Source: a virus (lineage: Duplodnaviria; Caudoviricetes). Taken from it: a stretch of DNA of 64,000 bases. Each line of letters starts with the position of its first letter. The first letter of the stretch is position 1. The notes beneath the pieces were generated by a model. The model was given only the letters and a program-made list of their open reading frames with translations. It did no database searches and was not told where the DNA came from. Of this stretch, positions 45,048 to 60,951 are shown piece by piece. The position numbers and the translations under genes were made by a program. Location: positions 544 to 64,543 of IMG/VR virus record IMGVR_UViG_3300010354_014876; one strand, written 5' to 3'.

Positions 45048-45051
45048 AATC

Positions 45052-46920: not shown

Positions 46921-46923
46921 TTC

Positions 46924-48115: not shown

Positions 48116-48126
48116 GGAGAGGAATT

Positions 48127-48405: not shown

Positions 48406-48414
48406 GGAATAAAA

Positions 48415-48693: not shown

Positions 48694-48695
48694 AA

Positions 48696-48992
48696 ATGGC
48701 AAGACTTAGAGTTAACACTATTGTAGATAGAAATGATAGTGGTCAACCATCATTACCTTATGGTGCAACTATTCCATCTGGACAACGTATAAATGTCAAT
48801 GGAAATATAAATTTAACCGGAATTTCTACAGTAGGATTTGTAACTGCTTCTTTCGGTTCAAATATTTCTGGAGTTATCACTGCAACATCTTTTATTGGTG
48901 ATGGAAGTGCTCTTACCGCAATCCCAACTACGACGATATCAAAAGCAATAGCTTTAAAACTTTTAATGGATCCTCTGCCATTTAGATCATGA
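48696..48992 (+). CDS. small fibre-associated paralog B3
   Basis: LRVNTIVD...YGATIP...ITATSFIGDGS; 51-bp near-identical to 48578-48628. Confidence 0.7.
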   Translation: MARLRVNTIVDRNDSGQPSLPYGATIPSGQRINVNGNINLTGISTVGFVTASFGSNISGVITATSFIGDGSALTAIPTTTISKAIALKLLMDPLPFRS

Positions 48993-49294
48993 AAGTTCAA
49001 ACCGATGAAATTATAAGTAGAACGGGTCAAGATGCAGTATCATTTCTTGATGGTGCGACTGGAGGAACTGCGGGAGGAAATGGTAGGTTTATCGTAACTT
49101 GCACATCAACATCTTTTATTGGAATATCTACTTTTGGAACTTTAAATACTGTTAATGATGTCCATACCTCTGGAATTGTGACAGCATTATTTTTTCAAGG
49201 TGGTGGGCAGGAACTGACAAATATTACTAGCATTTCAATTGCAAAAAGTTATGCATTAAAACTCATTATTTCAGATCCACCTTTAAGATCATAA
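48989..49294 (+). CDS. small fibre-associated paralog B4
   Basis: GIVTALFFQGGG..LTN...I.KSYALKL..SDP..RS, like B3. Confidence 0.65.
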   Translation: MKVQTDEIISRTGQDAVSFLDGATGGTAGGNGRFIVTCTSTSFIGISTFGTLNTVNDVHTSGIVTALFFQGGGQELTNITSISIAKSYALKLIISDPPLRS

Positions 49295-49299
49295 ACTGT

Positions 49300-49307
49300 T
49301 ATAAATA
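49300..49307 (+). promoter_or_regulatory. T4-type late promoter
   Basis: TATAAATA upstream of 49340. Confidence 0.7.
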
Positions 49308-49339
49308 ATCAAAGTAAATTAAACAATTTATAAAAAAAC

Positions 49340-49714
49340 ATGGCTGCTCCAAATATTGTAGGTGTAACAACTATTCTTGGTGTAACAACCAGTGCTCAAT
49401 TGTCAACATCTCCTGTCACTATTGTCAGCAACCCAGCAAATAGTGGCAAAGTTTATAAGATTAATACTATTATTGCTGCAAACGAAACTGCTGCTACAGC
49501 AACAGTAACAGTTCGTTATAATGATAATGCTGCAGGTGCTGGAACTACAGTTACACTTGCAAATGGAATTGATATCGCAACAAAATCAACTCTCGTTGTT
49601 CTTGACAAGGCATCTTCAATTTATCTAGAAGAGAATAGATCAATCACTGCTTTAAGTGGAACCGCAAGTGCAATTGATCTTGTCGTATCTTATGAAGATA
49701 TCACCAATCTTTGA
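49340..49714 (+). CDS. virion protein (MAAPNIV family)
   Basis: MAAPNIVGVTTI.G...KVYKINTII.AN...IYLEENRSI...SYE. Confidence 0.8.
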   Translation: MAAPNIVGVTTILGVTTSAQLSTSPVTIVSNPANSGKVYKINTIIAANETAATATVTVRYNDNAAGAGTTVTLANGIDIATKSTLVVLDKASSIYLEENRSITALSGTASAIDLVVSYEDITNL

Positions 49715-49737
49715 TATTTAAATAAAGGAGAATCACA

Positions 49738-50175
49738 ATGGCAGATCCAAACGCACTTTATTCCTATCAAGGAGGAGAGCCACAACCTCTTCCTAACGAA
49801 ATTCACTATGTTGAAGATTGGGGTGGAACCAACTTTAGACAAGGTGTAGAAACTTTTACTGATGAAGAACTTACAAGAGCAGGTTATACTGGACCTTTTA
49901 CAAGACCAGAGTTTGACCAAGAACTAGAAACTCAAGCATGGGATTCTGATCTTCAAGAATGGGTTACTACACCAATTCCTGATGAATTTTTCTGGGAAAG
50001 ATTGAGAGCAGAAAGAGACTATAAACTTGCAATTTCTGATAGAACTCAACTTGCAGACGCACCTTTAACAAGTGCTAAAAAAACTGCATGGGCTACTTAT
50101 CGTCAGGAATTAAGAGATCTTCCTGCAAATACCGAAAATCCAAGAGAAGTTACTTGGCCAGTTCAACCGGAGTAA
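49738..50175 (+). CDS. tail fibre assembly chaperone-like protein (cassette B)
   Basis: MADPNALYSY as 46345; LRAERDYKLAISDRTQLADAP...WATYRQELRDLP...WP. Confidence 0.82.
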   Translation: MADPNALYSYQGGEPQPLPNEIHYVEDWGGTNFRQGVETFTDEELTRAGYTGPFTRPEFDQELETQAWDSDLQEWVTTPIPDEFFWERLRAERDYKLAISDRTQLADAPLTSAKKTAWATYRQELRDLPANTENPREVTWPVQPE

Positions 50176-50178
50176 AGT

Positions 50179-50727
50179 ATGGCTCCTTTTAGACCACAAA
50201 ACTTAAATAAAAGACTTGTAAGTGAAACTGGTGGAAATGGTGGAGTTATTGGACCCACAGTTGTTCCATATTTGTGTGGAGCTCTTTCTCTAGGATCTAG
50301 ATGTTCTGGTGGGTGTTGTACCGGAAGATTTACTTTAAGTGAATCTTATTGTGGAGTAAAGTGTTTATGCAATAATGCACTGGTAGATTGTAAAGGTTTC
50401 TTTATTTGTTGTGGCCCTTCAACTACTAAATGGTTTGCAGCACCCTCTTCTACTGAAGTGTCTAGAAATTGGTTTAATAGAGGAGATGCAGTAACTGTAG
50501 CAAACTCATGTATGGGATCCTGTGGATGGTTTGTTCCTGAATGTAACCAACTCCAGAATCCAGGATATACTTGCTCCGTTCACTGGGACGATACTGGAGG
50601 CTGGTATTGGTCCAATAGCGAAGGAGGTGGACTTGGTATTATGGTACTCCTGTCTAATGGGTTCACTTTAGCCAACGGTAAAAATCACACAAATTCTGTT
50701 CGTGCCTTTAGATGCACATCAACTTGA
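50179..50727 (+). CDS. Cys-rich DUF1566/CLec-like protein, paralog 2
   Basis: MAPFRP start, GFFICCG, WFVP, QNPGY, YWSNSE, VRAFR. Confidence 0.75.
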   Translation: MAPFRPQNLNKRLVSETGGNGGVIGPTVVPYLCGALSLGSRCSGGCCTGRFTLSESYCGVKCLCNNALVDCKGFFICCGPSTTKWFAAPSSTEVSRNWFNRGDAVTVANSCMGSCGWFVPECNQLQNPGYTCSVHWDDTGGWYWSNSEGGGLGIMVLLSNGFTLANGKNHTNSVRAFRCTST

Positions 50728-50763: not shown

Positions 50764-51114
50764 ATGAGTATAATAATTGGACTGTATGGATCATTTGAAT
50801 GGGAAGCAAATCAAATTTTTGATAAAGAAAGTTCTCATAGATCAATGATTCATGATAGTGGGGTTACTTTATTTAAGAATGGAAATCATGTATGCAGCAT
50901 TTCTGAGGAAAGATTAAGTAAAATAAAAAATGATGGGAATTTTCCTATCAATTCTATAAATTATTGTTTAAATTATGCAAATATTTTATGTGAAGAGGTG
51001 GATTACGTATATATTCCATCAATGTGCGTGGATATTTTTTATAAGAAGTGGTATGATAATGTTATTCATGAAAAAATAAAAAATATTTTTCCAAATTCTG
51101 AAATAAAAAATTGA
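50764..51114 (+). pseudogene. N-terminal fragment of a NodU/CmcH-type carbamoyltransferase
   Basis: HDSGVTLFKNG, SISEERLSKIKNDGNFP; stops at 116 aa before the HHxxH motif. Confidence 0.65.
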
Positions 51115-51221: not shown

Positions 51222-51842
51222 ATGAACTTAATACCAATTTATTCTGTCCCTCTGTGGCAATCAGAATACCCCGAGTTTGAAAAGGAAAAACAAATTATTT
51301 TAGATGCTTGTAAAAGATATAGACAAGAAAATCCGTCTTCAGAGACAAAATCAAATGTTGGTGGATATCAATCACCTAATTTTCTTCATGCAAAAGAAGA
51401 ATTAGCACCTCTTTTTGAATATATTTGTCAGATGGCATTTAAAGCATGTGCAGACCTTGATTTTATTGATTGCGACGTTGCTCTCACTGAATCTTGGGTG
51501 AACATCAATGATAGTCGTCAATGTATGAATGGAGAGCATGTACACGGAGAAGTTTTCTCTGGGGTATTTTATCTTCAAGCACCGGAAGAAAGTGGAAAAC
51601 TTAATATTATCAATCCAGCAATCAATCGTATGTGGAAAGGTTGCTCACTAACTTCACAGAAAAATCAGTTTACTGCAGAAAGTATAAAAATTGAACCAGT
51701 TGAGGGTGATATCATCTTATTTCCCTCATATCTTCCACACTCAGTAGAAACCAATAATCATGATGGGGAGAGAATTTCAATTTCCTTTAATGTCATTGCT
51801 CTTCCAAAAGGTTCTATAAATCAGCAAGTTTCTAACGAATAA
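51222..51842 (+). CDS. 2OG-Fe(II) oxygenase-like protein (TIGR02466-like)
   Basis: SNVGGYQS, WVNIN, H.H..FSGVFYL, LFPSYLPHSV, RISISFN. Confidence 0.85.
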   Translation: MNLIPIYSVPLWQSEYPEFEKEKQIILDACKRYRQENPSSETKSNVGGYQSPNFLHAKEELAPLFEYICQMAFKACADLDFIDCDVALTESWVNINDSRQCMNGEHVHGEVFSGVFYLQAPEESGKLNIINPAINRMWKGCSLTSQKNQFTAESIKIEPVEGDIILFPSYLPHSVETNNHDGERISISFNVIALPKGSINQQVSNE

Positions 51843-51870: not shown

Positions 51871-52416
51871 ATGGCTCCTTTGAGACCTGCAAATTTAAAT
51901 AAAAGAAGAATAAGTGCAACTGGCGGAAATGGTGGAGTTATTGGACCCACTAAGACTCCATACGTATCCCTTGAGTTAGGATGTCGTTGTTGTGGAGGAC
52001 TTAGTTCCGGAAGATTCACTTTAAGTGAATCTTATTGTGGAGCAAAATTTGCAGAGATTGTAGATTTTAAGGGTTTCTTTATTTGTTGTGGTCCTTCAAC
52101 CACTAAATGGTTTGTAGCACCTTCTTGCACTGAAGTATCAAGAAACTGGTATACTAGAGGAGATGCAGTAACTGTAGCAAATTCATGCATGGGATCTTGT
52201 GGATGGTTTGTTCCTGAATGTGGTCAACTCCAGAATCCCGGATACTCTTGCAGAAATTTTTGGGACTCATATGTATCTGCTTCATACTGGAGCAATACAG
52301 ATTTTAATGGTATTACACGATCATGGTCTGTAAGTTTAGTTGATGGCACGGCATCCAACTATAGTCTTCAAAACAGTGTATGCTGCATTCGTGCTTTCAG
52401 ATGCACCACTACTTGA
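51871..52416 (+). CDS. Cys-rich DUF1566/CLec-like protein, paralog 3
   Basis: MAPLRP start, near-identical core to 50179, YWSNTD...IRAFR; AATAAATA at 51838. Confidence 0.75.
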   Translation: MAPLRPANLNKRRISATGGNGGVIGPTKTPYVSLELGCRCCGGLSSGRFTLSESYCGAKFAEIVDFKGFFICCGPSTTKWFVAPSCTEVSRNWYTRGDAVTVANSCMGSCGWFVPECGQLQNPGYSCRNFWDSYVSASYWSNTDFNGITRSWSVSLVDGTASNYSLQNSVCCIRAFRCTTT

Positions 52417-52446: not shown

Positions 52447-52968
52447 ATGAATGAAAGTATAATATCAAAAAAAGAATTAAATTATATTCTTGAGTTTGTT
52501 AATGTAAATGAAGATTTATTTGTAAAAAATACAATTTCTTCTAATAGAAAATATTTAACTTTATATAGAAACTTAAATCCTCCCAGTTTATTTTTTGAGA
52601 TTAAAAAAAGAATTTTAGATAGAGAAAAAATTATAGACAATTACATTGATGATGTATTTTCCTATGGTGATTTGTATGGAGATTATATAGGGTTCATTTC
52701 TGATGGTGGAAAAATACATTACCACAAAGATCAAACATTACAAAAATATAAACTTATCAGATTTAATTTATTCTTATCTGTTCCAGAAAAAGGAGGACTT
52801 CCAATATATAATGGAGTAACTATACCAGTAAATGTTGGAGATTATATCAGATGCAATTCAAGTGAAGAACATCATGAGTGTGAAATGGTTGAAGGTGATA
52901 TTCCAAGAATCATAATATCATATGGAATTTATTTGAAACAAAAAAATAAACTTATCAATTACTCATGA
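52447..52968 (+). CDS. 2OG-Fe(II) oxygenase-like protein
   Basis: HYHKD (HxD), RFNLFLS.PEKGG, distal H, R.IISYG. Confidence 0.7.
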   Translation: MNESIISKKELNYILEFVNVNEDLFVKNTISSNRKYLTLYRNLNPPSLFFEIKKRILDREKIIDNYIDDVFSYGDLYGDYIGFISDGGKIHYHKDQTLQKYKLIRFNLFLSVPEKGGLPIYNGVTIPVNVGDYIRCNSSEEHHECEMVEGDIPRIIISYGIYLKQKNKLINYS

Positions 52969-53798
52969 AAAAATATTATTTTATCTCCGGACTTCCAAGG
53001 TCTGGTTCCACATTACTTTCTTCTATTCTTAAACAAAATCCTGATTTTTATGCTGATATTGCATCACCTGTAGAATCTCTCACAAGAACTGCAGTTGATG
53101 TAATTACAAGTTCTGAGAATAATTTTACAATGACAGAAGACCAAAGAAAGAACTTAATGTATGGAATTTTTGATGGTTACTATAAACACATAGATAAACC
53201 AGTCATCTTTGATAGTTCAAGGGCTTGGACAAAGAAAACAAACTTTCTAAAGGCACTCTTTCCTTACACTAAAATGTTATGTCCAGTCAGAAATATTGTT
53301 TCTATTTTGAACTCTTTTGAAGTTATTTCCTCTAAAAATCCATTTCACACTAAGACACTCACAGAACATAGGGACAATGTGTTTGTAAGATGTGATGAAA
53401 TGATGGATAAGAATGTTGGAATTGTTGCTGGGCCGTGGATTTTACTTCAAGAAGGTTATGCTCTCAACCCAGAAATGATACACTTTATTGAATATGAGAA
53501 CCTATGTAAGGAACCAGAAAAAACAATGAGAAAAGTATATGAGTTTCTTGAGAGACCTTATTATGCCCACGATTTTGAAAATGTAGAATACTCAAATGAA
53601 AACTTTGATAAGTCGTGTAATCTCAAAGACCTACATACAGTCAAAAGAAAAGTGGAATATAACCCACCAAGATGTGTGCTTCCTCCAGAAATTGTGAAAA
53701 AATATCAAGAAATGAATATGGAGTTTTGGAGAGCAGGACATAAAACTGACCCAGATATTATTGGAAAATTAGATAAAAAATTTATTGAGTATAAATGA
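52965..53798 (+). CDS. sulfotransferase family protein
   Basis: SGLPRSGSTLL PAPS-binding loop, VRN..SILNS, YENLCKEPE. Confidence 0.85.
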   Translation: MKKYYFISGLPRSGSTLLSSILKQNPDFYADIASPVESLTRTAVDVITSSENNFTMTEDQRKNLMYGIFDGYYKHIDKPVIFDSSRAWTKKTNFLKALFPYTKMLCPVRNIVSILNSFEVISSKNPFHTKTLTEHRDNVFVRCDEMMDKNVGIVAGPWILLQEGYALNPEMIHFIEYENLCKEPEKTMRKVYEFLERPYYAHDFENVEYSNENFDKSCNLKDLHTVKRKVEYNPPRCVLPPEIVKKYQEMNMEFWRAGHKTDPDIIGKLDKKFIEYK

Positions 53799-53799
53799 T

Positions 53800-54735
53800 A
53801 TGAAAATTATTAACATTGACGGTGGAATTGGAAGAATAATTGCATCCCTTCCATCACTTCTGAAATATCATCAAAATCACCCAGATGAAGAGTGGTATGT
53901 TTCTATTCCTGGATGGGATTATGTTCCTCTTGGTATTCCAGAACTTCAAGAAAGAACTATAAATCCAGATACTAAAGGTGTCTGGGAAAATTATTTTATG
54001 AAGGCGGATGAAGTAGTTTCTCCAGAACCTTATCGTCTTCCTAATTTTTATAAAGGAAAAATATCACTTGCAGAAGCATTTGACGAAATTATTAATGAAA
54101 CAGAAGATCATAGTGATTTAAATTATGAAACATTAAATCTTTCTCATGCAGAAATTCGTAGAGGACAAGAAATTATTTACGAAGCTTATGAAAAACAAGG
54201 AAAAGATCAGACTATAGTTTTTAATCCTTATGGTTCTTCCGCAATGGTAACTCCATTAAATGGGGTGTGTGATGATAGTTTGAGATCCATTCCAGAAGAT
54301 ATGTTCAATGAACTTTATAAGTTACTGGCAAAGGATTATAACGTTATCTACATGGGATACAGACACCTTCTCAATCCCGATGATCAATTTGTATATACAC
54401 CTCAACAAGATCTTCATATTCGTGAGTGGATGGGAGTAATCTCTCAAATTGATTATTTGATTGGTTGTGACAGTGTTGGGCAACATATTGCAAGGGCAAC
54501 AGGAACTCAAGGATGCGTAATTATGGGTGGAACTGATGCAGTCAATATGTCATATCCTGATCATTTTAGAATTATTCAAAGAAAAAAACCAGTTTATTCA
54601 CCAATGAGAATTTCTGGACTCCAATCAAATCTTGCAGAGAGACTAAACAAAGAATGTATTGAATATACTGATGATGAAATTCTAGATACATATGAAAAAA
54701 TAAAGAATGATTTAAAAAATATAATCAATGATTAA
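53800..54735 (+). CDS. glycosyltransferase (GT9/heptosyltransferase-like)
   Basis: GGIGR N-terminus, IREWMGVIS..DYLIGCDSVGQHIARA. Confidence 0.7.
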   Translation: MKIINIDGGIGRIIASLPSLLKYHQNHPDEEWYVSIPGWDYVPLGIPELQERTINPDTKGVWENYFMKADEVVSPEPYRLPNFYKGKISLAEAFDEIINETEDHSDLNYETLNLSHAEIRRGQEIIYEAYEKQGKDQTIVFNPYGSSAMVTPLNGVCDDSLRSIPEDMFNELYKLLAKDYNVIYMGYRHLLNPDDQFVYTPQQDLHIREWMGVISQIDYLIGCDSVGQHIARATGTQGCVIMGGTDAVNMSYPDHFRIIQRKKPVYSPMRISGLQSNLAERLNKECIEYTDDEILDTYEKIKNDLKNIIND

Positions 54736-55642
54736 AGTTCCGCATTTAGAATGGCACGTAGCACATTCATGCAACCTTTCATGCGAAAGTTGTATTCACT
54801 TTACCAATCACAACCACAGTGAGATTATTTCTATTGAAAAATTGAAAGAATGGTATTCTTTATGGAATAAAAAAATATCACCCAAAACAATGATATTGTT
54901 GGGTGGAGAACCACTTTTAAATAGAGACATAGTAGATATTGTTTACTTGACTAGAGAAATGTGGACTCAACCAAAGAATGGAAACTATTGGATTACTACA
55001 AATGGATTATTACTAGAAAATCATCCGAAGTTGCCAATTGCTCTTAGAGATACAAAGTGTATGCTTCAAATCTCAATTCATGGAAATGAAAGGGCACAAC
55101 AATATTATGAGAGAATTAAAAAAGTCTTCTCTCTAATCGAAGATTGGGGAACAAAGTATAACATAAAGTTGGTTAAATGTAATAGTGATGAAGAGTTTAA
55201 ACAGTTACAACCGAATGAGAATGAAACTTATGTAGTGTACAGGGATATGGTAGAAGATTGGACGAGAGCATACAAGGGATTTGGTATAAATTTAGAACCA
55301 TTTGAAGATAATGATATAAAACAAAGTTGGAATAATTGTGTGGCAGGAAAAGAATGTTTTCAACTATATGAAGGTAAAATATATAAGTGTTGTATGACCG
55401 CATATTTACAACTTCAAAAAAATAAGTATGGAAATAAATTATCGAGGAAATGGAATACATATTTACATTATGAACCACTGAATGCAGATTGCTCCGATGA
55501 AGACATCATTGAATTTTTTAATAGAAAAGAAGAATATGTTTGTGGAATGTGTCCAAAAAACCCACAGGTTTTCTTAAAAAAAGATCCTACAATACCTGTG
55601 AGTTTTTATGAAAAGAACAACAATTTAAAATACTCTTATTGA
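54728..55642 (+). CDS. radical SAM protein with C-terminal Cys cluster
   Basis: CNLSCESC (CxxxCxxC), GGEPLL, TTNGLL, C-terminal C..C...KCC...CGMCP. Confidence 0.9.
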   Translation: MIKVPHLEWHVAHSCNLSCESCIHFTNHNHSEIISIEKLKEWYSLWNKKISPKTMILLGGEPLLNRDIVDIVYLTREMWTQPKNGNYWITTNGLLLENHPKLPIALRDTKCMLQISIHGNERAQQYYERIKKVFSLIEDWGTKYNIKLVKCNSDEEFKQLQPNENETYVVYRDMVEDWTRAYKGFGINLEPFEDNDIKQSWNNCVAGKECFQLYEGKIYKCCMTAYLQLQKNKYGNKLSRKWNTYLHYEPLNADCSDEDIIEFFNRKEEYVCGMCPKNPQVFLKKDPTIPVSFYEKNNNLKYSY

Positions 55643-55652
55643 TAATTGCTAT

Positions 55653-57188
55653 ATGAAAATACTATCAATACCAATTTTAGCCCACGATACTTCATGTTGT
55701 ATAATTGAAAATGGTAAAATTTCTTCCTATATTATGGAGGAAAGATTTTCAAGAGTAAAGCATGATTTAAGGTTGGATTGTATCTTAAAAAAGTTGGTGG
55801 AACAAAATGAGACTGAATTTGATGATTTAATTATTTCGAAATCATTTTTAGATGAATATACTTATTCATTAAATAAATTAACAAAAAAATTAGAAAAATT
55901 TAAATACAATAATTTCATAATAGATGATAAAAATCATCATCTTTATCATGCATATTCTGGATTTTTTAATTCTAATTTTGAAGAAGCAATTTGTTTTTCT
56001 GTAGACGCTACTGGGGCAGTTGTTGAAGGTGAGTTTGTGGAAGTAGAAACGGTATATATTTTTAAAAGGGGACAAAAAGAAAAAATAATTTATAAAAAAA
56101 GAAGAGAAAGTTTATATGATCAATCAGAAGAAAAAATAAGTGTTGGTGAAAAATATCTATCTAAATGTAAAAAATTTGGATATAATCCAATTGATGGAGC
56201 TGGAAAACTAATGGGGTTGGGCCAATACAAAAATAATAAAAATGAATTGCAATATCCACATAATACAAAAGAGTGGAAAGAAAGAGTTGATGAAGCATAT
56301 AATCTTCAACAAGAAACACAAACTTATATCTTAAATCTTATTCAAAAATATACAGAAGAAACTGGAATTAAAAATGTAGTCATCTCAGGTGGTTATGGTT
56401 TAAATTGTGTTGCAAACTACCATTATCTTAGGAATCTAAAAGACATTAGTTTTTATATTGATCCAATTTGTTTTGATGCTGGCATTAGTATTGGTGCTGC
56501 ATACTATCATTACATTCAATCTACTCAATCTACTCAAAATAATCAATTAATTCAACCACTCCAGAATGCATATATTGGATATCAAGAGGAATCTTATAAC
56601 TTAAGTGGTCTTGAAACTCAAAGAGTTTCTTACAATGACATAGTTGACTTACTTCTTCAAAAAAATATTGTTGCATTATTTCAAGGTAAGTCTGAGGCAG
56701 GCCAGAGAGCACTTGGAAATCGTTCATTACTTTTTGATCCAAGAATTTCCAATGGTAAAGATATTGTGAATCAAATTAAAAAAAGAGAAAACTTTAGACC
56801 TTTTGCCGGAACCATCCTATTAGAAGAAGCATCAAAATGGTTTAACATGTTTTCATTAGAAGAAAGTCCTTATATGCAATATGCAATGGATGCTTATGAA
56901 AATGCTATAGAGCAAGTTCCTGCAATTATTCACGCAGATAATACTTGCAGAATACAAACTGTAACTCAAGAACAAAATAAACACTTCTACAATCTCATTT
57001 CTTGTTTTTTTGAACAAACTGGGGTTCCTATTCTGTTAAACACAAGTTTCAATCTTGGTGGAGAACCTTTAGTTGAAACTTTTGAACATGCACTACATAC
57101 TCTTAGAAATAGTATGATAGAATACTTGTACTTACCGGAAATAGAGACTTTAATCACAATTAAAAATAGAAAATTACAATATCAATGA
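55653..57188 (+). CDS. carbamoyltransferase (NodU/CmcH family)
   Basis: HDTS, EERFSRVKH, HHLYHA, GKLMGL, SGGYGLNCVAN, RALGNRS, KKRENFRPFA, LNTSFN. Confidence 0.92.
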   Translation: MKILSIPILAHDTSCCIIENGKISSYIMEERFSRVKHDLRLDCILKKLVEQNETEFDDLIISKSFLDEYTYSLNKLTKKLEKFKYNNFIIDDKNHHLYHAYSGFFNSNFEEAICFSVDATGAVVEGEFVEVETVYIFKRGQKEKIIYKKRRESLYDQSEEKISVGEKYLSKCKKFGYNPIDGAGKLMGLGQYKNNKNELQYPHNTKEWKERVDEAYNLQQETQTYILNLIQKYTEETGIKNVVISGGYGLNCVANYHYLRNLKDISFYIDPICFDAGISIGAAYYHYIQSTQSTQNNQLIQPLQNAYIGYQEESYNLSGLETQRVSYNDIVDLLLQKNIVALFQGKSEAGQRALGNRSLLFDPRISNGKDIVNQIKKRENFRPFAGTILLEEASKWFNMFSLEESPYMQYAMDAYENAIEQVPAIIHADNTCRIQTVTQEQNKHFYNLISCFFEQTGVPILLNTSFNLGGEPLVETFEHALHTLRNSMIEYLYLPEIETLITIKNRKLQYQ

Positions 57189-57832
57189 ATATTCTTACAA
57201 AAGATGAAAATAACAAAGACATAATATTAGATCCCACTCTAAAACATCAAATTATGATGGAGTGGGAAAAACCATATATGGAAGCATGTATTCAAAAACT
57301 TCAACCATTTGGTGATGTTTTGGAAATTGGATTTGGATTGGGATATTCAGCAACAGAAATACAAAAATTTCCAATCAAATCTTATACCGTTATTGAGTGT
57401 GATGTTGGTGCATATCAAAGGGCTTTAAGATGGAAAGAAAAGTATAAGCATCAAATTAATATTATTCACGATAGATGGGAAAATGTTTATAAATTTTTAC
57501 CAAAATTTGATTGTTTGTTTTTTGATGATTATGACATTAAAACTTTAGAATTATGTAAAATAGATAACTCAATACTTTGTAGAAATATTGATTTTATTGA
57601 TAAAATAAAGAATAATTTAAAACCTACTACAAAGTTTTCTTTCTATTGCGCAACAAATAAAAACGAAATAGAGAAATATAAAAAGCAATGGATAAGATTT
57701 TTAGGGAAAAAATGTTCTCATATTGATTTTGAGGAATATGATATAGACGTTCCAAATAATTGCAAATATATAGTAGATCAAATTTTATACTGTCCTCTGA
57801 TAGAAATAAAAGAGATTTTTAATTATTATTAA
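57185..57832 (+). CDS. class I SAM methyltransferase (GAMT/RMT2-like)
   Basis: MMEWEKPYM, DVLEIGFGLGYSA, TVIEC, FDCLFFD. Confidence 0.85.
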   Translation: MNILTKDENNKDIILDPTLKHQIMMEWEKPYMEACIQKLQPFGDVLEIGFGLGYSATEIQKFPIKSYTVIECDVGAYQRALRWKEKYKHQINIIHDRWENVYKFLPKFDCLFFDDYDIKTLELCKIDNSILCRNIDFIDKIKNNLKPTTKFSFYCATNKNEIEKYKKQWIRFLGKKCSHIDFEEYDIDVPNNCKYIVDQILYCPLIEIKEIFNYY

Positions 57833-57833
57833 T

Positions 57834-58595
57834 ATGACTAAACCAATACAAGTATTTTTAAGGCAATGCTACTATTCAAAACTTCAAGAACTTCCAGATC
57901 GCACGAGACCGTCTTGGTTCAATAAAACTAAAGCATTTCACAATTTTAAAAACACTATAGACTTAAAACTTGCAGATTATCATATTGTTTATGACGAATT
58001 TTATGGTGATATCAAAAAAACTTTTCTTGCCGATGAAAAGGATGTAAAAATTATTAATTATGGAAGTGAGTGTGATAGTTTTATTGAAACTTTAAATTAT
58101 GTGGTATCAAAAAATTATTCACCAGATACTATCATTTATTTTTTGGAGGATGATTATATACATCGACCAAATTGGTGCAAAATATTACTTGAAGGATTTA
58201 CTTTAGGATCCTCTTATGTAACTCTTTATGATTTTGATTATTTTTTAAATGATGAAATTATGTGTAGACTTTTCACAACGAAAAGTACTCATTGGAGAGT
58301 TGTTCCAGCAACAACAAACACTTTTGCTTGTAAATTTTCTACCTTGTTAGAAGATTATGAAATTCATAAGGAATCGTCTTTAAATGGAATTAAGGAAGAA
58401 GATGGGTTTCATTTTTCTAAAGATTATGATAAATTTTGGAAGTTGTCTCAAGATTATAATAAATATGTGATATCTTGCTTACCTGGATATTCTACTCATT
58501 GTGATGCAAATCATATTTCTCCATTTATTGATTGGAAAGAAGTAATAAATCAAAATTTTATCATTGAGAACAAAAAATTTAAATTGAATTATTAA
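57834..58595 (+). CDS. glycosyltransferase (GT-A fold) -like protein
   Basis: IYFLEDDYIH (EDD motif), YVTLYD, STH. Confidence 0.65.
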   Translation: MTKPIQVFLRQCYYSKLQELPDRTRPSWFNKTKAFHNFKNTIDLKLADYHIVYDEFYGDIKKTFLADEKDVKIINYGSECDSFIETLNYVVSKNYSPDTIIYFLEDDYIHRPNWCKILLEGFTLGSSYVTLYDFDYFLNDEIMCRLFTTKSTHWRVVPATTNTFACKFSTLLEDYEIHKESSLNGIKEEDGFHFSKDYDKFWKLSQDYNKYVISCLPGYSTHCDANHISPFIDWKEVINQNFIIENKKFKLNY

Positions 58596-59393
58596 ATGAA
58601 AATTCATCAAATACTTATAAATTCTCAAAATACCCTACCAAAACTTCCAAAGTATATTCAGTTTTGCCAATCGCAAATTAAAAAATTATATCCAAATTCT
58701 GAATATCATTTATATTCTGGTCAAGAAATTGAGTGTATCTTAAAAAAAAATTTTTCAAATGATATAATCACATCTTACTATTCATTTAAACCATATGCAT
58801 ATAAAGCAGATTTAGCACGTTACTGCATTCTATACTTATATGGTGGTCTTTATATTGATCTAAGTCTATTATGTCTTTCTTCTCTGATATTAGATGATAC
58901 TAATTTTTTTGCATTTCGTGATTTGCCTGAATATTCTGATCCTTGGTGGGCTATTACAAATGCAATTATCTACACAAAACCAAGATCAAATGTTATGAAA
59001 ACTGCGATTGATGTAATGGTCCATCATTGCAAAACTCAATTTTATGGGACTTCTGCTATTGATGTCGGGGGACCTACAGTTCTTGGGAAAGCAGTGATGA
59101 GATCTCAAGAAAATTTTAATAAAGTTTTCACAAATGGCCAAGTAAATTACATTGATTATAGTGATTTGGATATTGAAAAGGAAATTTTAACATCTTTTGA
59201 ATATGATTTAAATAAACTGACGGGTTTTGTTTTAGACAAAGATAAAAAAATTATTGCCTTAAGAAAACCAAGTAAGGGTGGAGATATTCAATCACTTGGT
59301 TTAGAGGGAACTAATAATTATGTGAATATGTGGTTGAATAGAGATGTTTATGATGATTCAATAAAGTTTAATACATTGTTTAAATATGCATAA
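58596..59393 (+). CDS. glycosyltransferase, GT32/Och1-like
   Basis: KIHQI, AYKADLARYCILYLYGGLYID, GPTVLG. Confidence 0.85.
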   Translation: MKIHQILINSQNTLPKLPKYIQFCQSQIKKLYPNSEYHLYSGQEIECILKKNFSNDIITSYYSFKPYAYKADLARYCILYLYGGLYIDLSLLCLSSLILDDTNFFAFRDLPEYSDPWWAITNAIIYTKPRSNVMKTAIDVMVHHCKTQFYGTSAIDVGGPTVLGKAVMRSQENFNKVFTNGQVNYIDYSDLDIEKEILTSFEYDLNKLTGFVLDKDKKIIALRKPSKGGDIQSLGLEGTNNYVNMWLNRDVYDDSIKFNTLFKYA

Positions 59394-59434
59394 AGTAACA
59401 GAAACCTAAATAATGCATTAAATAATGCAGACAA

Positions 59435-59602
59435 ATGATTGACATCAATTATGATGAGGTGTCTAAAGAGTTTTATGTATCTTTTCAAGGAAAAAGATAT
59501 AGTATAGCAAATCATGAGATTGATAATCTCAAAAAAAGACTAGACTCTTTAGATACTCAATCTCTACTAAACCAAAACAATGCAAATCAAAACTTGCTCT
59601 AA
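59435..59602 (+). CDS. hypothetical protein (55 aa, not in ORF track)
   Basis: MIDINYDEVSKEFYVSFQGKRY...; CTAAATA upstream. Confidence 0.4.
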   Translation: MIDINYDEVSKEFYVSFQGKRYSIANHEIDNLKKRLDSLDTQSLLNQNNANQNLL

Positions 59603-59819
59603 GTGTGGAGCACGGTGGATATCAAACCAGCTTTATTGGTCTTCTGGAAAACCTGGAAAAGAAGAAGATTTAGCAGGTCTTGTTTGTAATCAAATTAATG
59701 ATCCCAACTGCATCAACCCTAAGATTGGAGATGAAAGTGGTCAAAGTTGGGAGAAAAGACTTAAAATGATGGATGATTTTCATGAAAAGATGCTTAATGA
59801 TCCGGAATTTGATCTATAA
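59580..59819 (+). CDS. hypothetical protein with Cys motifs
   Basis: CSKCGARW..QLYWS.GK...DLAGLVCN...CINP. Confidence 0.7.
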   Translation: MQIKTCSKCGARWISNQLYWSSGKPGKEEDLAGLVCNQINDPNCINPKIGDESGQSWEKRLKMMDDFHEKMLNDPEFDL

Positions 59820-59878
59820 TTTATCTTTAAACGTAACAAAGCAATTCTAAAGATATTTTGGGTTTTTGTCAATATGGG

Positions 59879-59907
59879 TTGACATCGGACACAAATTCAC
59901 TTATGAT
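59879..59907 (+). promoter_or_regulatory. sigma70-type early promoter
   Basis: TTGACA-17 bp-TATGAT. Confidence 0.7.
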
Positions 59908-59928
59908 ATCTGAAGTTGAATAGTGGTG

Positions 59929-60162
59929 ATGTCTTTTACAAATAGTTCTCTCTTAGAGTCAGAACCACAAAGGTTTTATGTGACAAATGATGAAATGTGG
60001 GCAGCAATTCCATATGGTGATAACTTTATGGTGATTAACAATGGACAACAAATCAAACAGTTTGTGACCTTGGAAGAATGTATCGATTTTATCTCAGTCA
60101 AGCATCAAAAGAAGAGAACTTCTAAAAGAAAAAGTGATGTAACAATTGATCAATTTTGCTAA
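59929..60162 (+). CDS. hypothetical protein
   Basis: MWAAIPYG..FMVINNGQQI; follows promoter. Confidence 0.65.
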   Translation: MSFTNSSLLESEPQRFYVTNDEMWAAIPYGDNFMVINNGQQIKQFVTLEECIDFISVKHQKKRTSKRKSDVTIDQFC

Positions 60163-60729
60163 GTGAAAAACGAGAAGTATCAAATCATAGACAATTTTTT
60201 AAGTCAGAGTGATTTTTTAGAAATAAAAAATACTTTTTTTCCAAATGAAGAAAATCGAAAAATTCTTCCATGGAATTATAATGAAGGAATAGTTAGAGAT
60301 CCATCTTTAGGTCCAACTGGTTATGAGGAAAATGATTGGATGTATTCACATTCTTTTATATCATCAGATACAAAAAAGGAAAGTGAATTCATAGATCTAG
60401 TAAAACCAATTTTTAAAAAACTTCATGCTAGTGAAATAATAGACGCTAGATCTAATTTATTAATCCCAACTCAAAATCATATTCATCATGAAGATCATGT
60501 TGACAGAAAAACTCCACATAAAGTTGCTCTGTTTTATGTTACTTCTAATAATGGATTTACTGTTTTGAAAGATGTTGCTGAGGTAAATTGTACTGAAAAT
60601 AGAATGTTAATATTTGATGGATCAATTCACCATCACTCTGTAACTTCAACTGACAATGTTAGATGTGTCATCAATATAAACTTTATTCCTTATTTAAAGA
60701 TAGGGAAAATAAACTTTAATTATAGTTAA
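60163..60729 (+). CDS. 2OG-Fe(II) oxygenase-like protein
   Basis: IIDNFL, HVD, ALFYV.SNNG.T, ENRMLIFDG..HHS, RCVININF. Confidence 0.8.
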   Translation: MKNEKYQIIDNFLSQSDFLEIKNTFFPNEENRKILPWNYNEGIVRDPSLGPTGYEENDWMYSHSFISSDTKKESEFIDLVKPIFKKLHASEIIDARSNLLIPTQNHIHHEDHVDRKTPHKVALFYVTSNNGFTVLKDVAEVNCTENRMLIFDGSIHHHSVTSTDNVRCVININFIPYLKIGKINFNYS

Positions 60730-60744
60730 TTGCCTTTAAAAATT

Positions 60745-60951
60745 ATGATTCGTTTTATCGTAGCTTCTACACTTGCACTGTTTCCTTTGAGTGCTTCTGC
60801 TCTTCCTTATGATGACACTGTAACATTTAGTGCATCCTCTGCCTGTTCTGAACTGACTGGTGTTCGTTATCCATCAGAAAGCACAGGTGAGCAATGGAAT
60901 AACTATCTGAAGTGTATTCAAGTTCTTAACTATCTTGATGTAAAATATTAA
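60745..60951 (+). CDS. hypothetical protein with signal-peptide-like N-terminus
   Basis: MIRFIVASTLALFPLSASA. Confidence 0.55.
   Translation: MIRFIVASTLALFPLSASALPYDDTVTFSASSACSELTGVRYPSESTGEQWNNYLKCIQVLNYLDVKY

What the first reader, a model, noticed from the sequence alone, without database searches (positions are those of the whole stretch)
52447..60729. Unrelated tailoring enzymes share a C-terminal 'basic...hydrophobic-x-Tyr-(x)' tag: a possible docking or sorting code
Seen: eight non-homologous enzymes end almost identically. 2OG oxygenase ...KQKNKLINYS*, sulfotransferase ...DKKFIEYK*, radical SAM ...KNNNLKYSY*, carbamoyltransferase ...KNRKLQYQ*, methyltransferase ...IKEIFNYY*, GT-A ...NKKFKLNY*, GT32 ...KFNTLFKYA*, 2OG oxygenase ...KIGKINFNYS*. 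In each, a Lys/Asn-rich tail beyond the catalytic domain ends in [ILF]-x-Y within 0-2 residues of the stop. Exceptions in the island are the GT9-like protein and the 51222 oxygenase. Elsewhere in the window only a couple of proteins match loosely (26040 ...ITYKS, 60745 ...VKY). Inference: a common peptide appended to different folds suggests a recruitment signal that docks interchangeable enzymes on one scaffold or substrate (e.g. the adjacent fibre-tip proteins or an assembly site) or sorts them into the virion. I know of no described system of this kind in cyanophages.
Basis: partly seen in the sequence, partly recalled or inferred. Interest (0 to 1): 0.85.

Follow-up and report, generated by a model that had tools for sequence, protein, structure and literature searches.

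The report
Shared C-terminal tyrosine tag on cyanophage enzymes
More than twenty unrelated enzyme families in a low-GC accessory island of uncultured marine cyanophages end in the same short peptide, with a tyrosine one residue before the end; it looks like a selected docking tag whose receptor is still unknown.

Summary
With 18 related viral loci the motif sharpens to a Lys-rich linker followed by hydrophobic(-4)-x-Tyr(-2)-x-COOH.

- Tyr sits at -2 in 70 of 154 low-GC ORFs and in 4 of 169 core-like ORFs.
- It is the majority state in 20 of 55 low-GC families.
- It is not composition. Low-GC ORFs elsewhere in cyanophage DNA show it in 8 of 147, and equally AT-rich carbamoyltransferase relatives in 5 of 150.
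- It is not a DNA signal. Codon use is ordinary and the motif does not depend on the distance to the next gene.
- It is not part of the folds. Cellular sulfotransferase homologues carry it in 0 of 79, the linkers vary in length, and the modelled tail is disordered.

Cultured relatives such as P-SSM2 and P-TIM68 lack it.

Best reading: a selected C-terminal docking peptide. The leading candidate receptor, untested, is the beta4/beta8 groove of the IbpA-type small heat-shock protein (sHSP) that all five fuller cyanomyovirus records searched encode. That protein's own tail keeps Tyr or Trp at -2 in 118 of 120 relatives. My literature searches found no description of such a tag.

The parts
52447..52968 (+). 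173-aa enzyme, probably a 2OG/Asp-Asn-hydroxylase-like oxygenase. It ends ..L-I-N-Y-S (Tyr at -2, Ile at -4).
   Evidence: ORF and tail. No Pfam, PHROG or NCBIfam hit. The protein-atlas feature search puts it nearest 2OG-FeII_Oxy_3 and Asp_Arg_Hydrox clusters, score 0.95-0.96, which is a lead only. GC 0.24.
52965..53798 (+). 277-aa sulfotransferase ending ..F-I-E-Y-K. The phage-specific addition is about the last 8 residues.
   Evidence: Pfam Sulfotransfer_3, E 8.5e-18. Viral relatives end at the domain (..EFWR), or carry tails of 11, 13 or 21 residues that all finish in hydrophobic-x-Y-x. Of 79 cellular homologues, 0 have Tyr at -2.
53785..54735 (+). 316-aa GT9-like protein, untagged (..N-I-I-N-D). 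It is a conserved core gene of the island.
Evidence: One copy is present in every related locus. Nine relatives of this type are untagged, and four of a second type (about 50% identical) are tagged. It lies next to the carbamoyltransferase in P-SSM2, S-CAM1, S-SSM7 and S-CAM3 as well.
54728..55642 (+). 304-aa radical SAM enzyme ending ..L-K-Y-S-Y. Tyr is at -1 and -3, so it is out of the main register.
   Evidence: Pfam Radical_SAM, E 7.7e-8. Weak NCBIfam matches to SPASM-type peptide maturases are all far below cut-off. No relative was found in viral contigs.
55653..57188 (+). 511-aa NodU/Nol-type carbamoyltransferase ending ..K-L-Q-Y-Q. The tag adds about 5-6 residues beyond the family's usual end.
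   Evidence: Pfam Carbam_trans_C, E 7.6e-57, covering residues 332-496. The four 65%-identical viral relatives end ..LLYQ..MMYQ and ..LMYK. The 150 best 50%-cluster representatives mostly stop at ..IKN(x), and only 5 have Tyr at -2.
57185..57832 (+). 215-aa putative methyltransferase ending ..I-F-N-Y-Y.
Evidence: All three family members carry the tag..VFKYE..ILNYY..IFNYY.
57834..58595 (+). 253-aa GT-A-fold glycosyltransferase ending ..F-K-L-N-Y. Here Tyr is the last residue; most relatives have one more residue after it.
   Evidence: AF2 model: mean pLDDT 76.5, tail 241-253 below 50 with no secondary structure. Foldseek best hits are GT-A glycosyltransferases, E about 1e-6, TM about 0.5. Of the 120 closest metagenomic relatives, 99 have Tyr at -2 and 13 at -1, behind a linker that varies in sequence and length.
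58596..59393 (+). 265-aa GT32-like glycosyltransferase (DXD sugar-binding region) ending ..L-F-K-Y-A.
   Evidence: Pfam Gly_transf_sug, E 9.7e-10. All four family members carry the tag..YFYV..ISYQ..LNYQ..FKYA.
60163..60729 (+). 188-aa protein of the cyanophage family usually annotated 'DNA endonuclease V'. It ends ..I-N-F-N-Y-S.
   Evidence: phrog_274, E 7.2e-39; no Pfam hit. Eight of 14 family members have Tyr at -2. Short members stop right after the last strand (..NFNYF..NFNFF). Long members add about 12 residues that end again in ..NFNY[SK].
51222..51842 (+). 206-aa 2OG-FeII_Oxy_5 oxygenase, untagged. It sits at the left edge of the island, between two Cys-rich fibre-associated proteins.
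   Evidence: Pfam PF13759, E 8.6e-23. Orthologues at this position are untagged in every locus that has one. Shorter second copies of 175-181 aa inside the islands are tagged.
60730..60951 (+). 73-aa ORF ending ..V-K-Y. Probably not part of the system.
   Evidence: GC 0.36, hydrophobic N-terminus, no family hit. Tyr at -1 occurs at about background rate in the pooled set, 12 of 154.
50764..51114 (+). 116-aa remnant of a carbamoyltransferase N-terminus, untagged. It marks turnover of cassettes at the island edge.
   Evidence: Pfam Carbam_trans_N, E 9.4e-9, covering profile positions 8-68 of 346 only.

Best explanation
The tails are a short linear motif selected at the protein level. A disordered Lys/Asn-rich linker of variable length ends in hydrophobic(-4)-x-Tyr(-2)-x-COOH. 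This peptide has been appended to many unrelated tailoring enzymes in the low-GC accessory island that lies beside the tail-fibre genes of one group of uncultured marine T4-like cyanophages.

Inferred mechanism: the tail is a docking peptide. Two side chains on one face of an extended strand (position -4 and Tyr -2) plug into a common receptor that also senses the nearby chain end. Interchangeable enzymes would thereby be recruited to one partner.

Leading candidate receptor (my estimate about 0.25, not tested): the beta4/beta8 groove of the IbpA-type small heat-shock protein (sHSP) that all five fuller cyanomyovirus records searched encode. That groove normally holds the sHSP's own C-terminal Ile-x-Ile anchor. 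The tag has the same register as E. coli IbpA's end (basic run, I-E-I-N-COOH). Its Tyr matches the Tyr/Trp that cyanophage sHSPs keep at -2. Docking there would tether marginally stable, fast-evolving enzymes to a holdase, or assemble them on one oligomer.

Shown: the motif, its breadth, its protein-level nature, its absence from homologues, and its disorder. Inferred: docking, and the identity of the receptor.
For: 1. Enrichment and register. After 95% dereplication, 70 of 154 low-GC plus-strand ORFs from the window and 18 viral loci have Tyr at -2, against 4 of 169 core-like ORFs (Fisher 1.7e-22). Tyr at -1 and at -3 is near background, 12 of 154 each. Of the 70, 62 have a hydrophobic residue at -4 and 63 have Lys or Arg within -5 to -10.

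2. Many independent families. The motif is the majority state in 20 of 55 low-GC BLAST families, and in 16 of the 24 with at least two members, against 2 of 94 other families. The tagged families include sulfotransferase, carbamoyltransferase, GT-A, GT32-like, GT9-like type 2, methyltransferase, 2OG oxygenases and Trp-halogenase-like proteins.

3. Not composition. Low-GC ORFs around hsp20 in 80 other cyanophage loci show Tyr at -2 in 8 of 147. Equally K/N/I/Y/F-rich carbamoyltransferase relatives show it in 5 of 150. The complete P-TIM68 genome shows it in 10 of 209 ORFs, scattered.

4. Protein level, not DNA level. The Tyr codons are TAT 58 and TAC 17, against 950 and 196 internally. The -4 codon shares only its middle T (84%). 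No other base is conserved. The motif occurs whether the next gene overlaps (33), starts within 10 nt (14), or starts further away (26).

5. Appended to the folds.
- Sulfotransferase relatives end at the domain or carry tails of 11, 13 or 21 residues with the same last four positions.
- None of 79 cellular homologues has the tag.
- In the GT-A family, 99 of 120 relatives keep Tyr at -2 while the linker changes in sequence and length.
- The AF2 tail has pLDDT below 50.

6. sHSP lead.
- All 5 fuller cyanomyovirus records searched encode one Hsp20.
- Among its 120 closest relatives, position -2 is Tyr in 70 and Trp in 48, and position -1 is Leu or Ile in 118.
- The phage Hsp20 is an IbpA homologue, 33% identical, E 7e-24.
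- E. coli IbpA ends ..KKPRRIEIN.
- The IXI motif binds the beta4/beta8 groove of a neighbouring subunit (passages of PMC4823740).
- A non-sHSP partner, BAG3, uses the same groove through IPV motifs (passages of PMC9237749).
- In the freshwater phage S-SRM01, 3 of 12 glycan-island ORFs end in Y-L, like its own Hsp20 (..RKDYL), against 4 of 291 other ORFs (Fisher 0.0015).
Against: - No binding has been shown for any receptor.
- hsp20 is not on the window's contig or on four related contigs, which are fragments 13-33% complete. So the tagged lineage's own sHSP is unknown.
- sHSPs are also present in cyanophages whose enzymes lack the tag (P-SSM2, P-TIM68, S-SSM7, S-CAM1). Presence of the receptor therefore does not explain why only one lineage is tagged.
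- The phage sHSP tail has Lys, not a hydrophobic residue, at -4 (119 of 120), and Leu or Ile at -1. The tags mostly have a polar residue at -1 (51 of 70). The two tails are alike in register but are not the same motif.
- IXI motifs in other sHSPs need not be terminal. IbpB, P-SSM2 Hsp20 and S-CAM1 Hsp20 all continue for 8-11 residues after the anchor. The strict -2 register of the tag is therefore not predicted by groove binding alone.
- About half of the low-GC island ORFs carry no tag, and these include enzymes of the same classes.
- All enrichment tests use a motif defined after seeing the data.
Confidence: 0.55

Rival explanations
1. Stability determinant or degron. The C-terminal residues set the lifetime of the enzymes. 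They either protect them from C-terminus-directed host proteolysis or mark them for timed removal by a host or phage AAA+ protease.
For: - The signal is at the extreme C-terminus and in a fixed register, as C-terminal degrons are.
- The last residue is mostly polar or charged, 51 of 70.
- The tail is disordered and accessible.
- From recall, not from any call: nonpolar C-termini destabilise proteins in E. coli; ssrA and MuA-type tags act at C-termini; the Lon degron of SulA has a penultimate Tyr.
Against: - The motif does not resemble the recalled cyanobacterial ssrA end (..VAA).
- Core phage proteins expressed in the same cell do not need it, 4 of 169.
- Nothing explains why a degron would be confined to accessory enzymes of one lineage.
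- No protease was tested.
Confidence: 0.13
2. Membrane or polyanion anchor. A basic stretch plus two hydrophobic or aromatic side chains holds enzymes at the inner membrane, where lipid-linked glycans are built, or on another anionic surface.
For: - Lys or Arg is about twofold enriched from -5 to -10. The last ten residues hold on average 2.1 basic and 0.8 acidic residues.
- Many of the enzymes are glycan-tailoring types that could act on membrane-bound intermediates.
- Relatives of the cluster in cultured phages sit with heptose-nucleotide synthesis genes.
Against: - A lipid anchor gives no reason for Tyr to sit exactly one residue from the end (70 at -2, against 12 at -1 and 12 at -3).
- It also gives no reason for near-exclusive use of Tyr over Phe, Leu or Trp.
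- Only two positions are hydrophobic, which is too few for the amphipathic helices of known membrane-targeting sequences (recalled).
- No helix is predicted in the tail.
Confidence: 0.1
3. Packaging signal. The tag loads the enzymes into the prohead or onto the virion, as C-terminal cargo-loading peptides load unrelated enzymes into HK97-fold encapsulin shells.
For: - It is a C-terminal peptide on unrelated enzymes, behind a flexible linker, in a virus with an HK97-fold capsid.
- The genes lie in the same orientation among late structural genes.
- Encapsulin cargo is selected by a cargo-loading peptide (abstract of PMC11866011 as shown in the listing).
Against: - Ten or more cofactor-dependent enzymes per virion would be a heavy cargo with no obvious use outside a cell.
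- The motif is unlike encapsulin peptides or the N-terminal T4 capsid-targeting sequence (both recalled).
- No capsid gene of this lineage was available for a test.
Confidence: 0.07
4. Nucleic-acid or translation-level signal. The conserved TAY codon two codons before the stop serves termination, translational coupling, transcription or cassette recombination, rather than the protein.
For: - Thirty-three of 75 tagged genes overlap the next start, and 14 more are within 10 nt.
- The island is a cassette-swapping region. It holds a truncated carbamoyltransferase at 50764-51114, and gene content differs between loci.
Against: - Twenty-six of 75 tagged genes have no start within 10 nt.
- No base outside TAY and the middle T of the -4 codon is conserved.
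- TAT and TAC are used as they are elsewhere in the genes.
- What is conserved at -4 is a physicochemical class spread over at least 10 codons.
- Core genes translated by the same ribosomes lack the motif.
Confidence: 0.04
5. Chance or AT-rich composition. Lys, Asn, Ile, Tyr and Phe are simply frequent in 22-30% GC genes.
For: Tyr makes up 6.6% and Lys+Asn+Ile 25% of the island proteins. Lys/Asn-rich ends are also seen in untagged relatives.
Against: - Position-specific: 45% Tyr at -2 against 6% background.
- Composition-matched controls: 8 of 147 and 5 of 150.
- Family-level binomial P of 1.3e-10.
Confidence: 0.01

Closest known systems
IXI (Ile-x-Ile/Val) C-terminal anchor of small heat-shock proteins, binding the beta4/beta8 groove of the alpha-crystallin domain; also the IPV motifs of the non-sHSP partner BAG3
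   Same: - Two hydrophobic 'knobs' at positions i and i+2 on a disordered C-terminal extension, preceded by basic residues.
- In E. coli IbpA the register is identical to the tag: I(-4)-E-I(-2)-N-COOH after KKPRR.
- Cyanophage IbpA homologues keep Tyr or Trp at -2 in 118 of 120 relatives.
- Unrelated proteins can borrow the motif to dock on an sHSP, as BAG3 does (passages of PMC9237749).
   Different: - The second knob of the tag is Tyr, not Ile, Val or Leu.
- The carriers are enzymes, not sHSPs.
- The cyanophage sHSP's own tail has Lys at -4 and Leu at -1.
- IXI motifs need not be terminal.
- Binding of the tags to any sHSP is untested.
HbYX / GQYL motifs of proteasome activators (hydrophobic-Tyr-any residue at the C-terminus)
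   Same: - A penultimate aromatic residue plus a free carboxylate, shared by activators that are otherwise unrelated (Mpa and Bpa).
- The motif inserts into pockets that hold a site for the aromatic ring and a lysine for the carboxylate (passages of PMC8223512).
- Window tails such as ..L-Q-Y-Q resemble G-Q-Y-L.
   Different: - The hydrophobic residue of the tag is at -4, not -3. Position -3 is hydrophobic in only 19 of 70.
- Cyanobacteria and T4-like phages are not known to have a 20S proteasome (recalled, not tested).
- The carriers are monomeric-type enzymes, not ring-shaped activators.
Cargo-loading peptides of encapsulins and encapsulation peptides of bacterial microcompartments
   Same: A short terminal peptide on unrelated enzymes that sends them to one protein assembly. 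Encapsulin shells share the phage capsid fold (abstracts of PMC11866011 and PMC8229669 as shown in the listing).
   Different: - Different sequence motifs (recalled).
- No shell gene lies beside the tagged genes.
- Ten or more different cargo types per genome, rather than one or a few.
- Packaging is untested.
PDZ-domain and DegS/Tsp-type C-terminal ligands; the outer-membrane-protein beta-signal
   Same: The extreme C-terminus is recognised through alternating side chains of an added strand.
   Different: These ligands need a hydrophobic or aromatic last residue. The tag's last residue is polar in 51 of 70 and its key residue is at -2. The known bacterial receptors are periplasmic (recalled), whereas these enzymes have no signal peptides and use cytoplasmic cofactors.

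Membership tests
sHSP-type IXI anchoring motif | Hydrophobic-x-hydrophobic pair on a flexible C-terminal extension | tested here: met
   Sixty-two of 70 Tyr(-2) proteins have I, L, M, V, F, Y or W at -4. The tail is disordered in the AF2 model. Linker length varies.
sHSP-type IXI anchoring motif | Both knobs are aliphatic (Ile, Val or Leu) | tested here: not met
   The second knob is Tyr. However, cyanophage Hsp20 tails themselves carry Tyr (70) or Trp (48) of 120 at -2.
sHSP-type IXI anchoring motif | Binds the beta4/beta8 groove of an alpha-crystallin domain | not testable with these tools
hsp20 is absent from the window's contig fragment. The AF2 model of a phage Hsp20 was too poor to read, pLDDT 58.7.
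HbYX / GQYL proteasome-docking motif | Tyr (aromatic) at the penultimate position with a free C-terminus | tested here: met
   Seventy of 154 low-GC ORFs have Tyr at -2. Positions -1 and -3 are at background.
HbYX / GQYL proteasome-docking motif | Hydrophobic residue directly before the Tyr (-3) | tested here: not met
   Position -3 is hydrophobic in 19 of 70. The commonest residues there are Asn (19) and Ser (13).
HbYX / GQYL proteasome-docking motif | A 20S proteasome alpha-ring as receptor | not tested
   No search for proteasome subunits was run. Their absence from cyanobacteria and T4-like phages is recalled only.
Encapsulin cargo-loading peptide | An encapsulin shell gene next to the cargo gene | tested here: not met
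   I saw no HK97-type shell gene among the called ORFs of the island loci. Not every ORF was scanned against profile libraries.
PDZ / tail-specific protease ligand | Hydrophobic C-terminal residue | tested here: not met
   The last residue is Q, K, S, E or N in 51 of 70 tagged proteins.
Integral part of each enzyme fold | Tail present and aligned in cellular or distant homologues | tested here: not met
   Sulfotransferase: 0 of 79 cellular homologues have Tyr at -2. Carbamoyltransferase: 5 of 150 representatives. P-SSM2, S-CAM1 and S-SSM7 orthologues end differently.

The most novel reading that the evidence does not exclude
The conserved but functionally unexplained small heat-shock protein of cyanomyoviruses acts as a plug-in rack. 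Accessory enzymes acquired by horizontal transfer gain a copy of the sHSP's own C-terminal anchor (basic run, hydrophobic-x-Tyr-x-COOH). They thereby dock in the beta4/beta8 groove of the sHSP oligomer. That keeps marginally stable, fast-evolving enzymes soluble, or gathers a changing set of fibre- or glycan-tailoring enzymes into one assembly. A new cassette would need only six extra codons to join the system.
Probability: 0.22. Interest if true: 0.9.

Novelty: new variant of a known kind. Interest (0 to 1): 0.8.

Why it matters
C-terminal targeting or docking peptides shared by unrelated proteins are known for a few assemblies, such as proteasome activators, encapsulins, microcompartments and sHSP partners. 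I found no report of one for phage accessory ("auxiliary") enzymes.

If the tag is a docking code, three things follow.
- The hypervariable islands beside cyanophage tail-fibre genes, which are among the most variable regions in marine viromes, would be organised systems and not loose collections of genes.
- The tag would give a simple sequence rule for recognising which island genes belong to the system.
- It would give a handle, in the form of a tail peptide, for fishing out the hub protein.

If the hub is the phage sHSP, that would assign a function to a gene present in all five fuller cyanomyovirus records searched and, by recall, core to the group, whose role in infection I recall as unexplained. 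It would also be a bacterial-virus example of client tethering through the IXI groove.

The tag is short and modular, so it could also be useful for co-localising enzymes by design.

Tried and rejected
Composition or chance: rejected by internal-position rates, by position-specific tables, by low-GC ORFs around hsp20 (8 of 147), by AT-rich carbamoyltransferase relatives (5 of 150) and by the whole P-TIM68 genome (10 of 209).

DNA motif or translational coupling: rejected for lack of conserved bases and because the motif does not depend on the distance to the next start.

Stop-to-Tyr read-through: rejected. Tagged tails are 5-21 residues longer than untagged homologues, not one codon longer.

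Sliding-clamp tail: considered because T4 polymerase and late-transcription factors dock on gp45 through C-terminal tails (recalled). P-SSM2 gp33 ends ..LNFMKATSKAKLPI, which is unlike the tag. I dropped this idea.

A receptor inside the island:
- No untagged gene is present in all tagged loci.
- The GT9-like protein exists in an untagged and a tagged type.
- The Oxy_5 oxygenase is missing from L002 and L003.
- A 90-aa protein and DUF6165 occur in only some loci.

Co-fold: one job tested the last 40 residues of the GT-A protein against the GT9-like protein, the Oxy_5 oxygenase and the Cys-rich fibre-associated protein. Result: no answer, score 0.01. This is no evidence either way.

AF2 model of a phage Hsp20: mean pLDDT 58.7, tail unreadable.

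Searches that found nothing useful:
- Megablast of the island against phage records: no match.
- Radical SAM protein in viral contigs: none.
- gp5-like protein against phages: uninformative.
- NCBIfam on seven island proteins: only weak radical SAM hits.

Literature:
- 'cyanophage' + 'penultimate tyrosine': 0 papers.
- Cyanophage + enzyme names + C-terminal: nothing relevant in the listing.
- 'HbYX' + bacteriophage: 5 papers, none about a phage motif.
- Cyanophage + hypervariable + tail fiber + oxygenase + glycosyltransferase: 10 papers. I read passages of PMC12801897 and found no mention of a shared tail.
- Cyanophage + 'C-terminal extension' + tyrosine: 10 papers, none relevant by title or abstract.
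Supplementary files were not consulted.

Full report
WHAT THE WINDOW IS

The window is 64 kb of a 64.5-kb viral contig, estimated 31% complete. It comes from a T4-like cyanomyovirus.
- Pfam finds gp59, gp32, gp53, baseplate and tail-tube proteins, PhoH, ThyX and a Mom-family protein.
- gp32 is 64-80% identical to the gp32 of the listed cultured and single-cell cyanophage records; the best among cultured Prochlorococcus and Synechococcus myoviruses is P-TIM68, at 80% over 79% of the protein.
- No phage record matches the island at the DNA level.
- Almost all genes are on the plus strand.
- GC is 0.33-0.38 over most of the window and falls to 0.29-0.31 between 52 and 60 kb.

The eight quoted tails are exact.

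Within the nine island enzymes, [ILFVM]-x-Y occurs at 43 of 2430 internal positions. The chance per C-terminus is therefore 0.052. Eight of nine then has P of about 5e-10. The pattern was defined after the fact, so this is indicative only.

Functions:
- Pfam confirms the sulfotransferase, radical SAM, carbamoyltransferase, GT32-like and Oxy_5 assignments.
- 57834 has a GT-A fold by AF2 plus Foldseek. Its best hits are protein O-glycosyltransferases such as ColGalT1, LH3 and ppGalNAc-T, with TM about 0.5.
- 52447 is nearest 2OG and Asp/Asn-hydroxylase clusters, as a lead only.
- 60163 belongs to the cyanophage family annotated 'endonuclease V'.
Pfam gave E 0.01 for the first and nothing for the second.

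THE MOTIF IS WIDESPREAD AND SHARPER THAN DESCRIBED

Relatives of three island proteins brought in 18 loci from 16 viral contigs. Nearly all their low-GC ORFs end in x-Y-x..FSYS..LNYQ..IEYE..LMYK..INYN..IKYQ..FNYK and so on.

After 95% dereplication the set is 490 ORFs in 381 clusters and 162 BLAST families. Results:
- Low-GC (below 0.32) plus-strand ORFs: Tyr at -2 in 70 of 154, at -1 in 12 and at -3 in 12.
- Intermediate GC (0.32-0.34): 8 of 43.
- Core-like ORFs (GC 0.34 or more): 4 of 169. Fisher test against the low-GC set gives 1.7e-22.
- Of the 70 tagged proteins, 62 are hydrophobic at -4. Only 19 are hydrophobic at -3, where Asn and Ser are commonest. Sixty-three have Lys or Arg within -5 to -10, and 51 end in Q, K, S, E or N.
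- By family, the motif is the majority state in 20 of 55 low-GC families (16 of the 24 with two or more members), against 2 of 94 others. Binomial P is 1.3e-10 at a 6.6% background.

The motif is therefore: Lys-rich linker, then hydrophobic(-4)-x-Tyr(-2)-x-COOH.

IT IS NOT COMPOSITION

- In 633 kb around hsp20 in 80 other cyanophage loci, Tyr at -2 occurs in 8 of 147 low-GC, 2 of 115 intermediate and 22 of 455 higher-GC ORFs.
- The 150 best 50%-cluster representatives of the carbamoyltransferase are as rich in K, N, I, Y and F. They end in the same ..YLYLPE..LI.IKN region, yet only 5 have Tyr at -2. The tagged proteins add about 5-6 residues, for example R-K-L-Q-Y-Q.
- The complete genome of the close cultured relative P-TIM68 has 10 of 209 ORFs with Tyr at -2, scattered.
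- In three tagged contigs read in full, every Tyr(-2) ORF lies in the island: 5, 5 and 9 ORFs.

IT IS NOT A NUCLEIC-ACID SIGNAL

For 75 tagged genes:
- The Tyr codon is TAT 58 and TAC 17, against 950 and 196 internally.
- Stop codons are TAA 40, TGA 32 and TAG 3.
- The -4 codon shares only its middle T (84%), spread over many codons.
- No other base is conserved.
- The next start overlaps in 33 genes, lies 0-10 nt away in 14, 11-40 nt in 6 and more than 40 nt in 20. Two genes have no downstream gene.

IT IS APPENDED, NOT PART OF THE FOLDS

- Sulfotransferase relatives stop at the domain end (..EFWR..EFWQWK) or carry tails of 11, 13 or 21 residues. All the tails finish in hydrophobic-x-Y-[KE].
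- Of 80 cellular homologues in bacterial genomes (34-42% identical), 79 could be read to their stop. None has Tyr at -2.
- In the GT-A family, 99 of the 120 closest metagenomic relatives keep Tyr at -2 and 13 have it at -1. The 12-16 residues between the conserved ..IDWxK[IV][IM]N and the tag change freely, including insertions.
- The AF2 model gives the tail (residues 241-253) pLDDT below 50 and no secondary structure.
- In the 'endonuclease V' (2OG) family, short members end right after the last strand in ..NFN[YFW]x. Long members add about 12 residues ending again in ..NFNY[SK].

THE TAG IS CONFINED TO ONE LINEAGE

The homologous clusters of cultured phages pair the GT9-like protein with the carbamoyltransferase, mostly (P-SSM2, S-CAM1 and S-SSM7) together with heptose-nucleotide synthesis genes beside tail-fibre genes. 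Their enzymes lack the tag.
- P-SSM2: 2 of 35 annotated CDS in the region have Tyr at -2. Neither is the carbamoyltransferase or the GT9-like protein.
- S-CAM1: 0 of 13 ORFs.
- S-SSM7: 4 of 20 ORFs, all fibre-like paralogues.
- Single-cell-derived records AG-345-O18: 1 of 50. AG-345-L05: 1 of 34.

Contig L014/G001, which has higher GC, has the same gene order but almost no tags. In one family, the homologous Tyr there is followed by four or five more residues (..NFNYSTKFI..NFNYEIDFK) instead of one (..NIFSYQ). Selection in the tagged lineage therefore acts on where the chain ends.

About half of the low-GC island ORFs are untagged. These include 2OG oxygenases, an Asp/Asn hydroxylase, a methyltransferase and a Trp-halogenase-like protein.

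HOW IT MOST LIKELY WORKS

The anatomy is that of a docking peptide read together with its free end:
- a fixed distance from the carboxylate;
- two side chains on the same face of an extended chain (-4 and -2);
- indifferent residues at -3 and -1;
- a disordered linker of any length;
- recurrence on more than 20 unrelated families.

I could not find the receptor inside the island. No untagged gene is common to all tagged loci. One co-fold of a tail against three neighbouring candidates gave no answer (listed under Tried and rejected only).

A SPECIFIC LEAD: THE PHAGE SMALL HEAT-SHOCK PROTEIN

All five fuller cyanomyovirus records searched encode one Hsp20. It is an IbpA homologue, 33% identical, E 7e-24.

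In sHSPs, a C-terminal Ile-x-Ile motif binds the beta4/beta8 groove of a neighbouring subunit (passages of PMC4823740). [quoted passage not shown] The unrelated protein BAG3 docks in the same groove through IPV motifs (passages of PMC9237749).

E. coli IbpA ends ..KKPRR-I-E-I-N. That is a basic run, then hydrophobic(-4)-x-hydrophobic(-2)-x-COOH, which is the register of the tag.

Cyanophage Hsp20 ends ..ARK[DE][YW]L:
- position -2 is Tyr in 70 and Trp in 48 of 120 relatives;
- position -1 is Leu or Ile in 118;
- S-CAM1 has ..RR-I-V-Y-D followed by ten more residues.

So in these phages the groove's cognate ligand carries a large aromatic residue at -2. The tags combine that residue with the canonical first knob.

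In the freshwater phage S-SRM01, 3 of 12 glycan-island ORFs end in Y-L, like its own Hsp20 (..RKDYL), against 4 of 291 other ORFs (Fisher 0.0015).

Caveats:
- The link is a resemblance, not a test.
- The sHSP tail has Lys at -4.
- IXI motifs need not be terminal.
- sHSPs also occur in untagged phages.
- The tagged lineage's own hsp20 is not on any fragment I hold.
- The AF2 model of a phage Hsp20 was too poor to use.

I put docking in general at about 0.55 and the sHSP as receptor at about 0.2-0.25.

WHAT THE ENZYMES MAY ACT ON (INFERENCE ONLY)

The island always follows a module of small fibre-like paralogues, a tail-fibre-assembly-like protein and a Cys-rich protein ending ..RAFRC...

The enzyme set has these features:
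- 2OG oxygenases and Asp/Asn-hydroxylase-like proteins;
- a GT-A protein closest in fold to collagen-hydroxylysine and mucin-type protein glycosyltransferases;
- a radical SAM enzyme with weak likeness to peptide maturases;
- halogenase-like proteins.

This set is compatible with tailoring of virion fibre proteins as well as with glycan synthesis. It does not bear on the reality of the tag.

COMPARISON WITH KNOWN SYSTEMS

- The tag works like a C-terminal docking motif of the IXI or HbYX kind. HbYX and GQYL motifs share the penultimate aromatic residue and the carboxylate-binding lysine pocket (passages of PMC8223512).
- It fails the HbYX definition at -3. It fails the PDZ and beta-signal definitions at the last residue.
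- It resembles encapsulin cargo-loading peptides only in logic.
- My searches found no paper describing it. These cover open-access full text only, and no supplementary files were read.

VERDICT

This is a real, statistically robust, lineage-specific C-terminal tag on unrelated phage accessory enzymes. Its function is inferred, not shown. I file it as a new variant of a known kind (terminal docking or targeting peptide), with a concrete, cheaply testable receptor hypothesis.

Noticed in passing
L127-L131, L213 and proteins P0272-P0391 (cyanophage Hsp20): Cyanomyovirus IbpA-like small heat-shock proteins keep an invariant-looking end, ..PEHH-A-R-K-[DE]-[YW]-L. An aromatic residue is at -2 in 118 of 120 relatives. 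In P-SSM2 and S-CAM1 the same segment is followed by 8-10 more residues.
   Followed up: partly
L139:4342-5343, L203:2634-3254 and relatives around hsp20: Two conserved cyanophage proteins outside the islands also end in hydrophobic-x-Y-x: the RecA/UvsX-like protein (..EFSYG, ..EFTYG) and the ferredoxin-dependent bilin reductase (..FLFxY[GDN]). Whether this is family history or the same signal is open.
   Followed up: partly
window 50764-51114: 116-aa ORF that matches only positions 8-68 of the 346-position carbamoyltransferase N-terminal profile. It is a remnant of a second carbamoyltransferase at the island edge. L005 has a similar 84-aa stump at 10942-11196.
   Followed up: partly
window 44823-47628 and 47762-50727: Two consecutive copies of a module. 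Each holds a protein of about 117 aa, three or four paralogous 73-101-aa proteins, and a tail-fibre-assembly-like protein; the downstream copy also holds a 124-aa protein. Each ends with a protein of 180-235 aa finishing in ..RAFR.. (..RAFRNG in the first copy, ..RAFRCTST in the second; the latter is Cys-rich). A third Cys-rich copy (51871-52416) follows the Oxy_5 oxygenase. These proteins have no Pfam family.
   Followed up: partly
window 53785-54735; P-SSM2, S-CAM1, S-SSM7, S-CAM3 records: The GT9-like protein and the Nol-type carbamoyltransferase are adjacent in all these phages. In P-SSM2, S-CAM1 and S-SSM7 they sit with annotated heptose-phosphate isomerase, kinase/adenylyltransferase and epimerase genes beside tail-fibre genes (the S-CAM3 neighbourhood was not read). 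This suggests a conserved carbamoylated-heptose module.
   Followed up: no
window 27551-28159, 26385-26837 and 10999-11451 (minus strand): A Mom-family protein (E 4.7e-20), an HNH endonuclease and a TnsA-like endonuclease lie among the structural genes.
   Followed up: no
L020 / S-SRM01 225-235 kb: This cultured freshwater Synechococcus phage has a glycan island in which 4 of 12 ORFs have Tyr at -2 and 3 end in Y-L. A tetratricopeptide-repeat protein is annotated at the island's left edge. It is the only cultured phage I found with a hint of the tag.
   Followed up: partly
window 74-721 and 2337-2663: The first ORF is the C-terminal part of an NAD-dependent sugar epimerase/dehydratase. An S-adenosylmethionine decarboxylase homologue lies at 2337-2663.
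   Followed up: no
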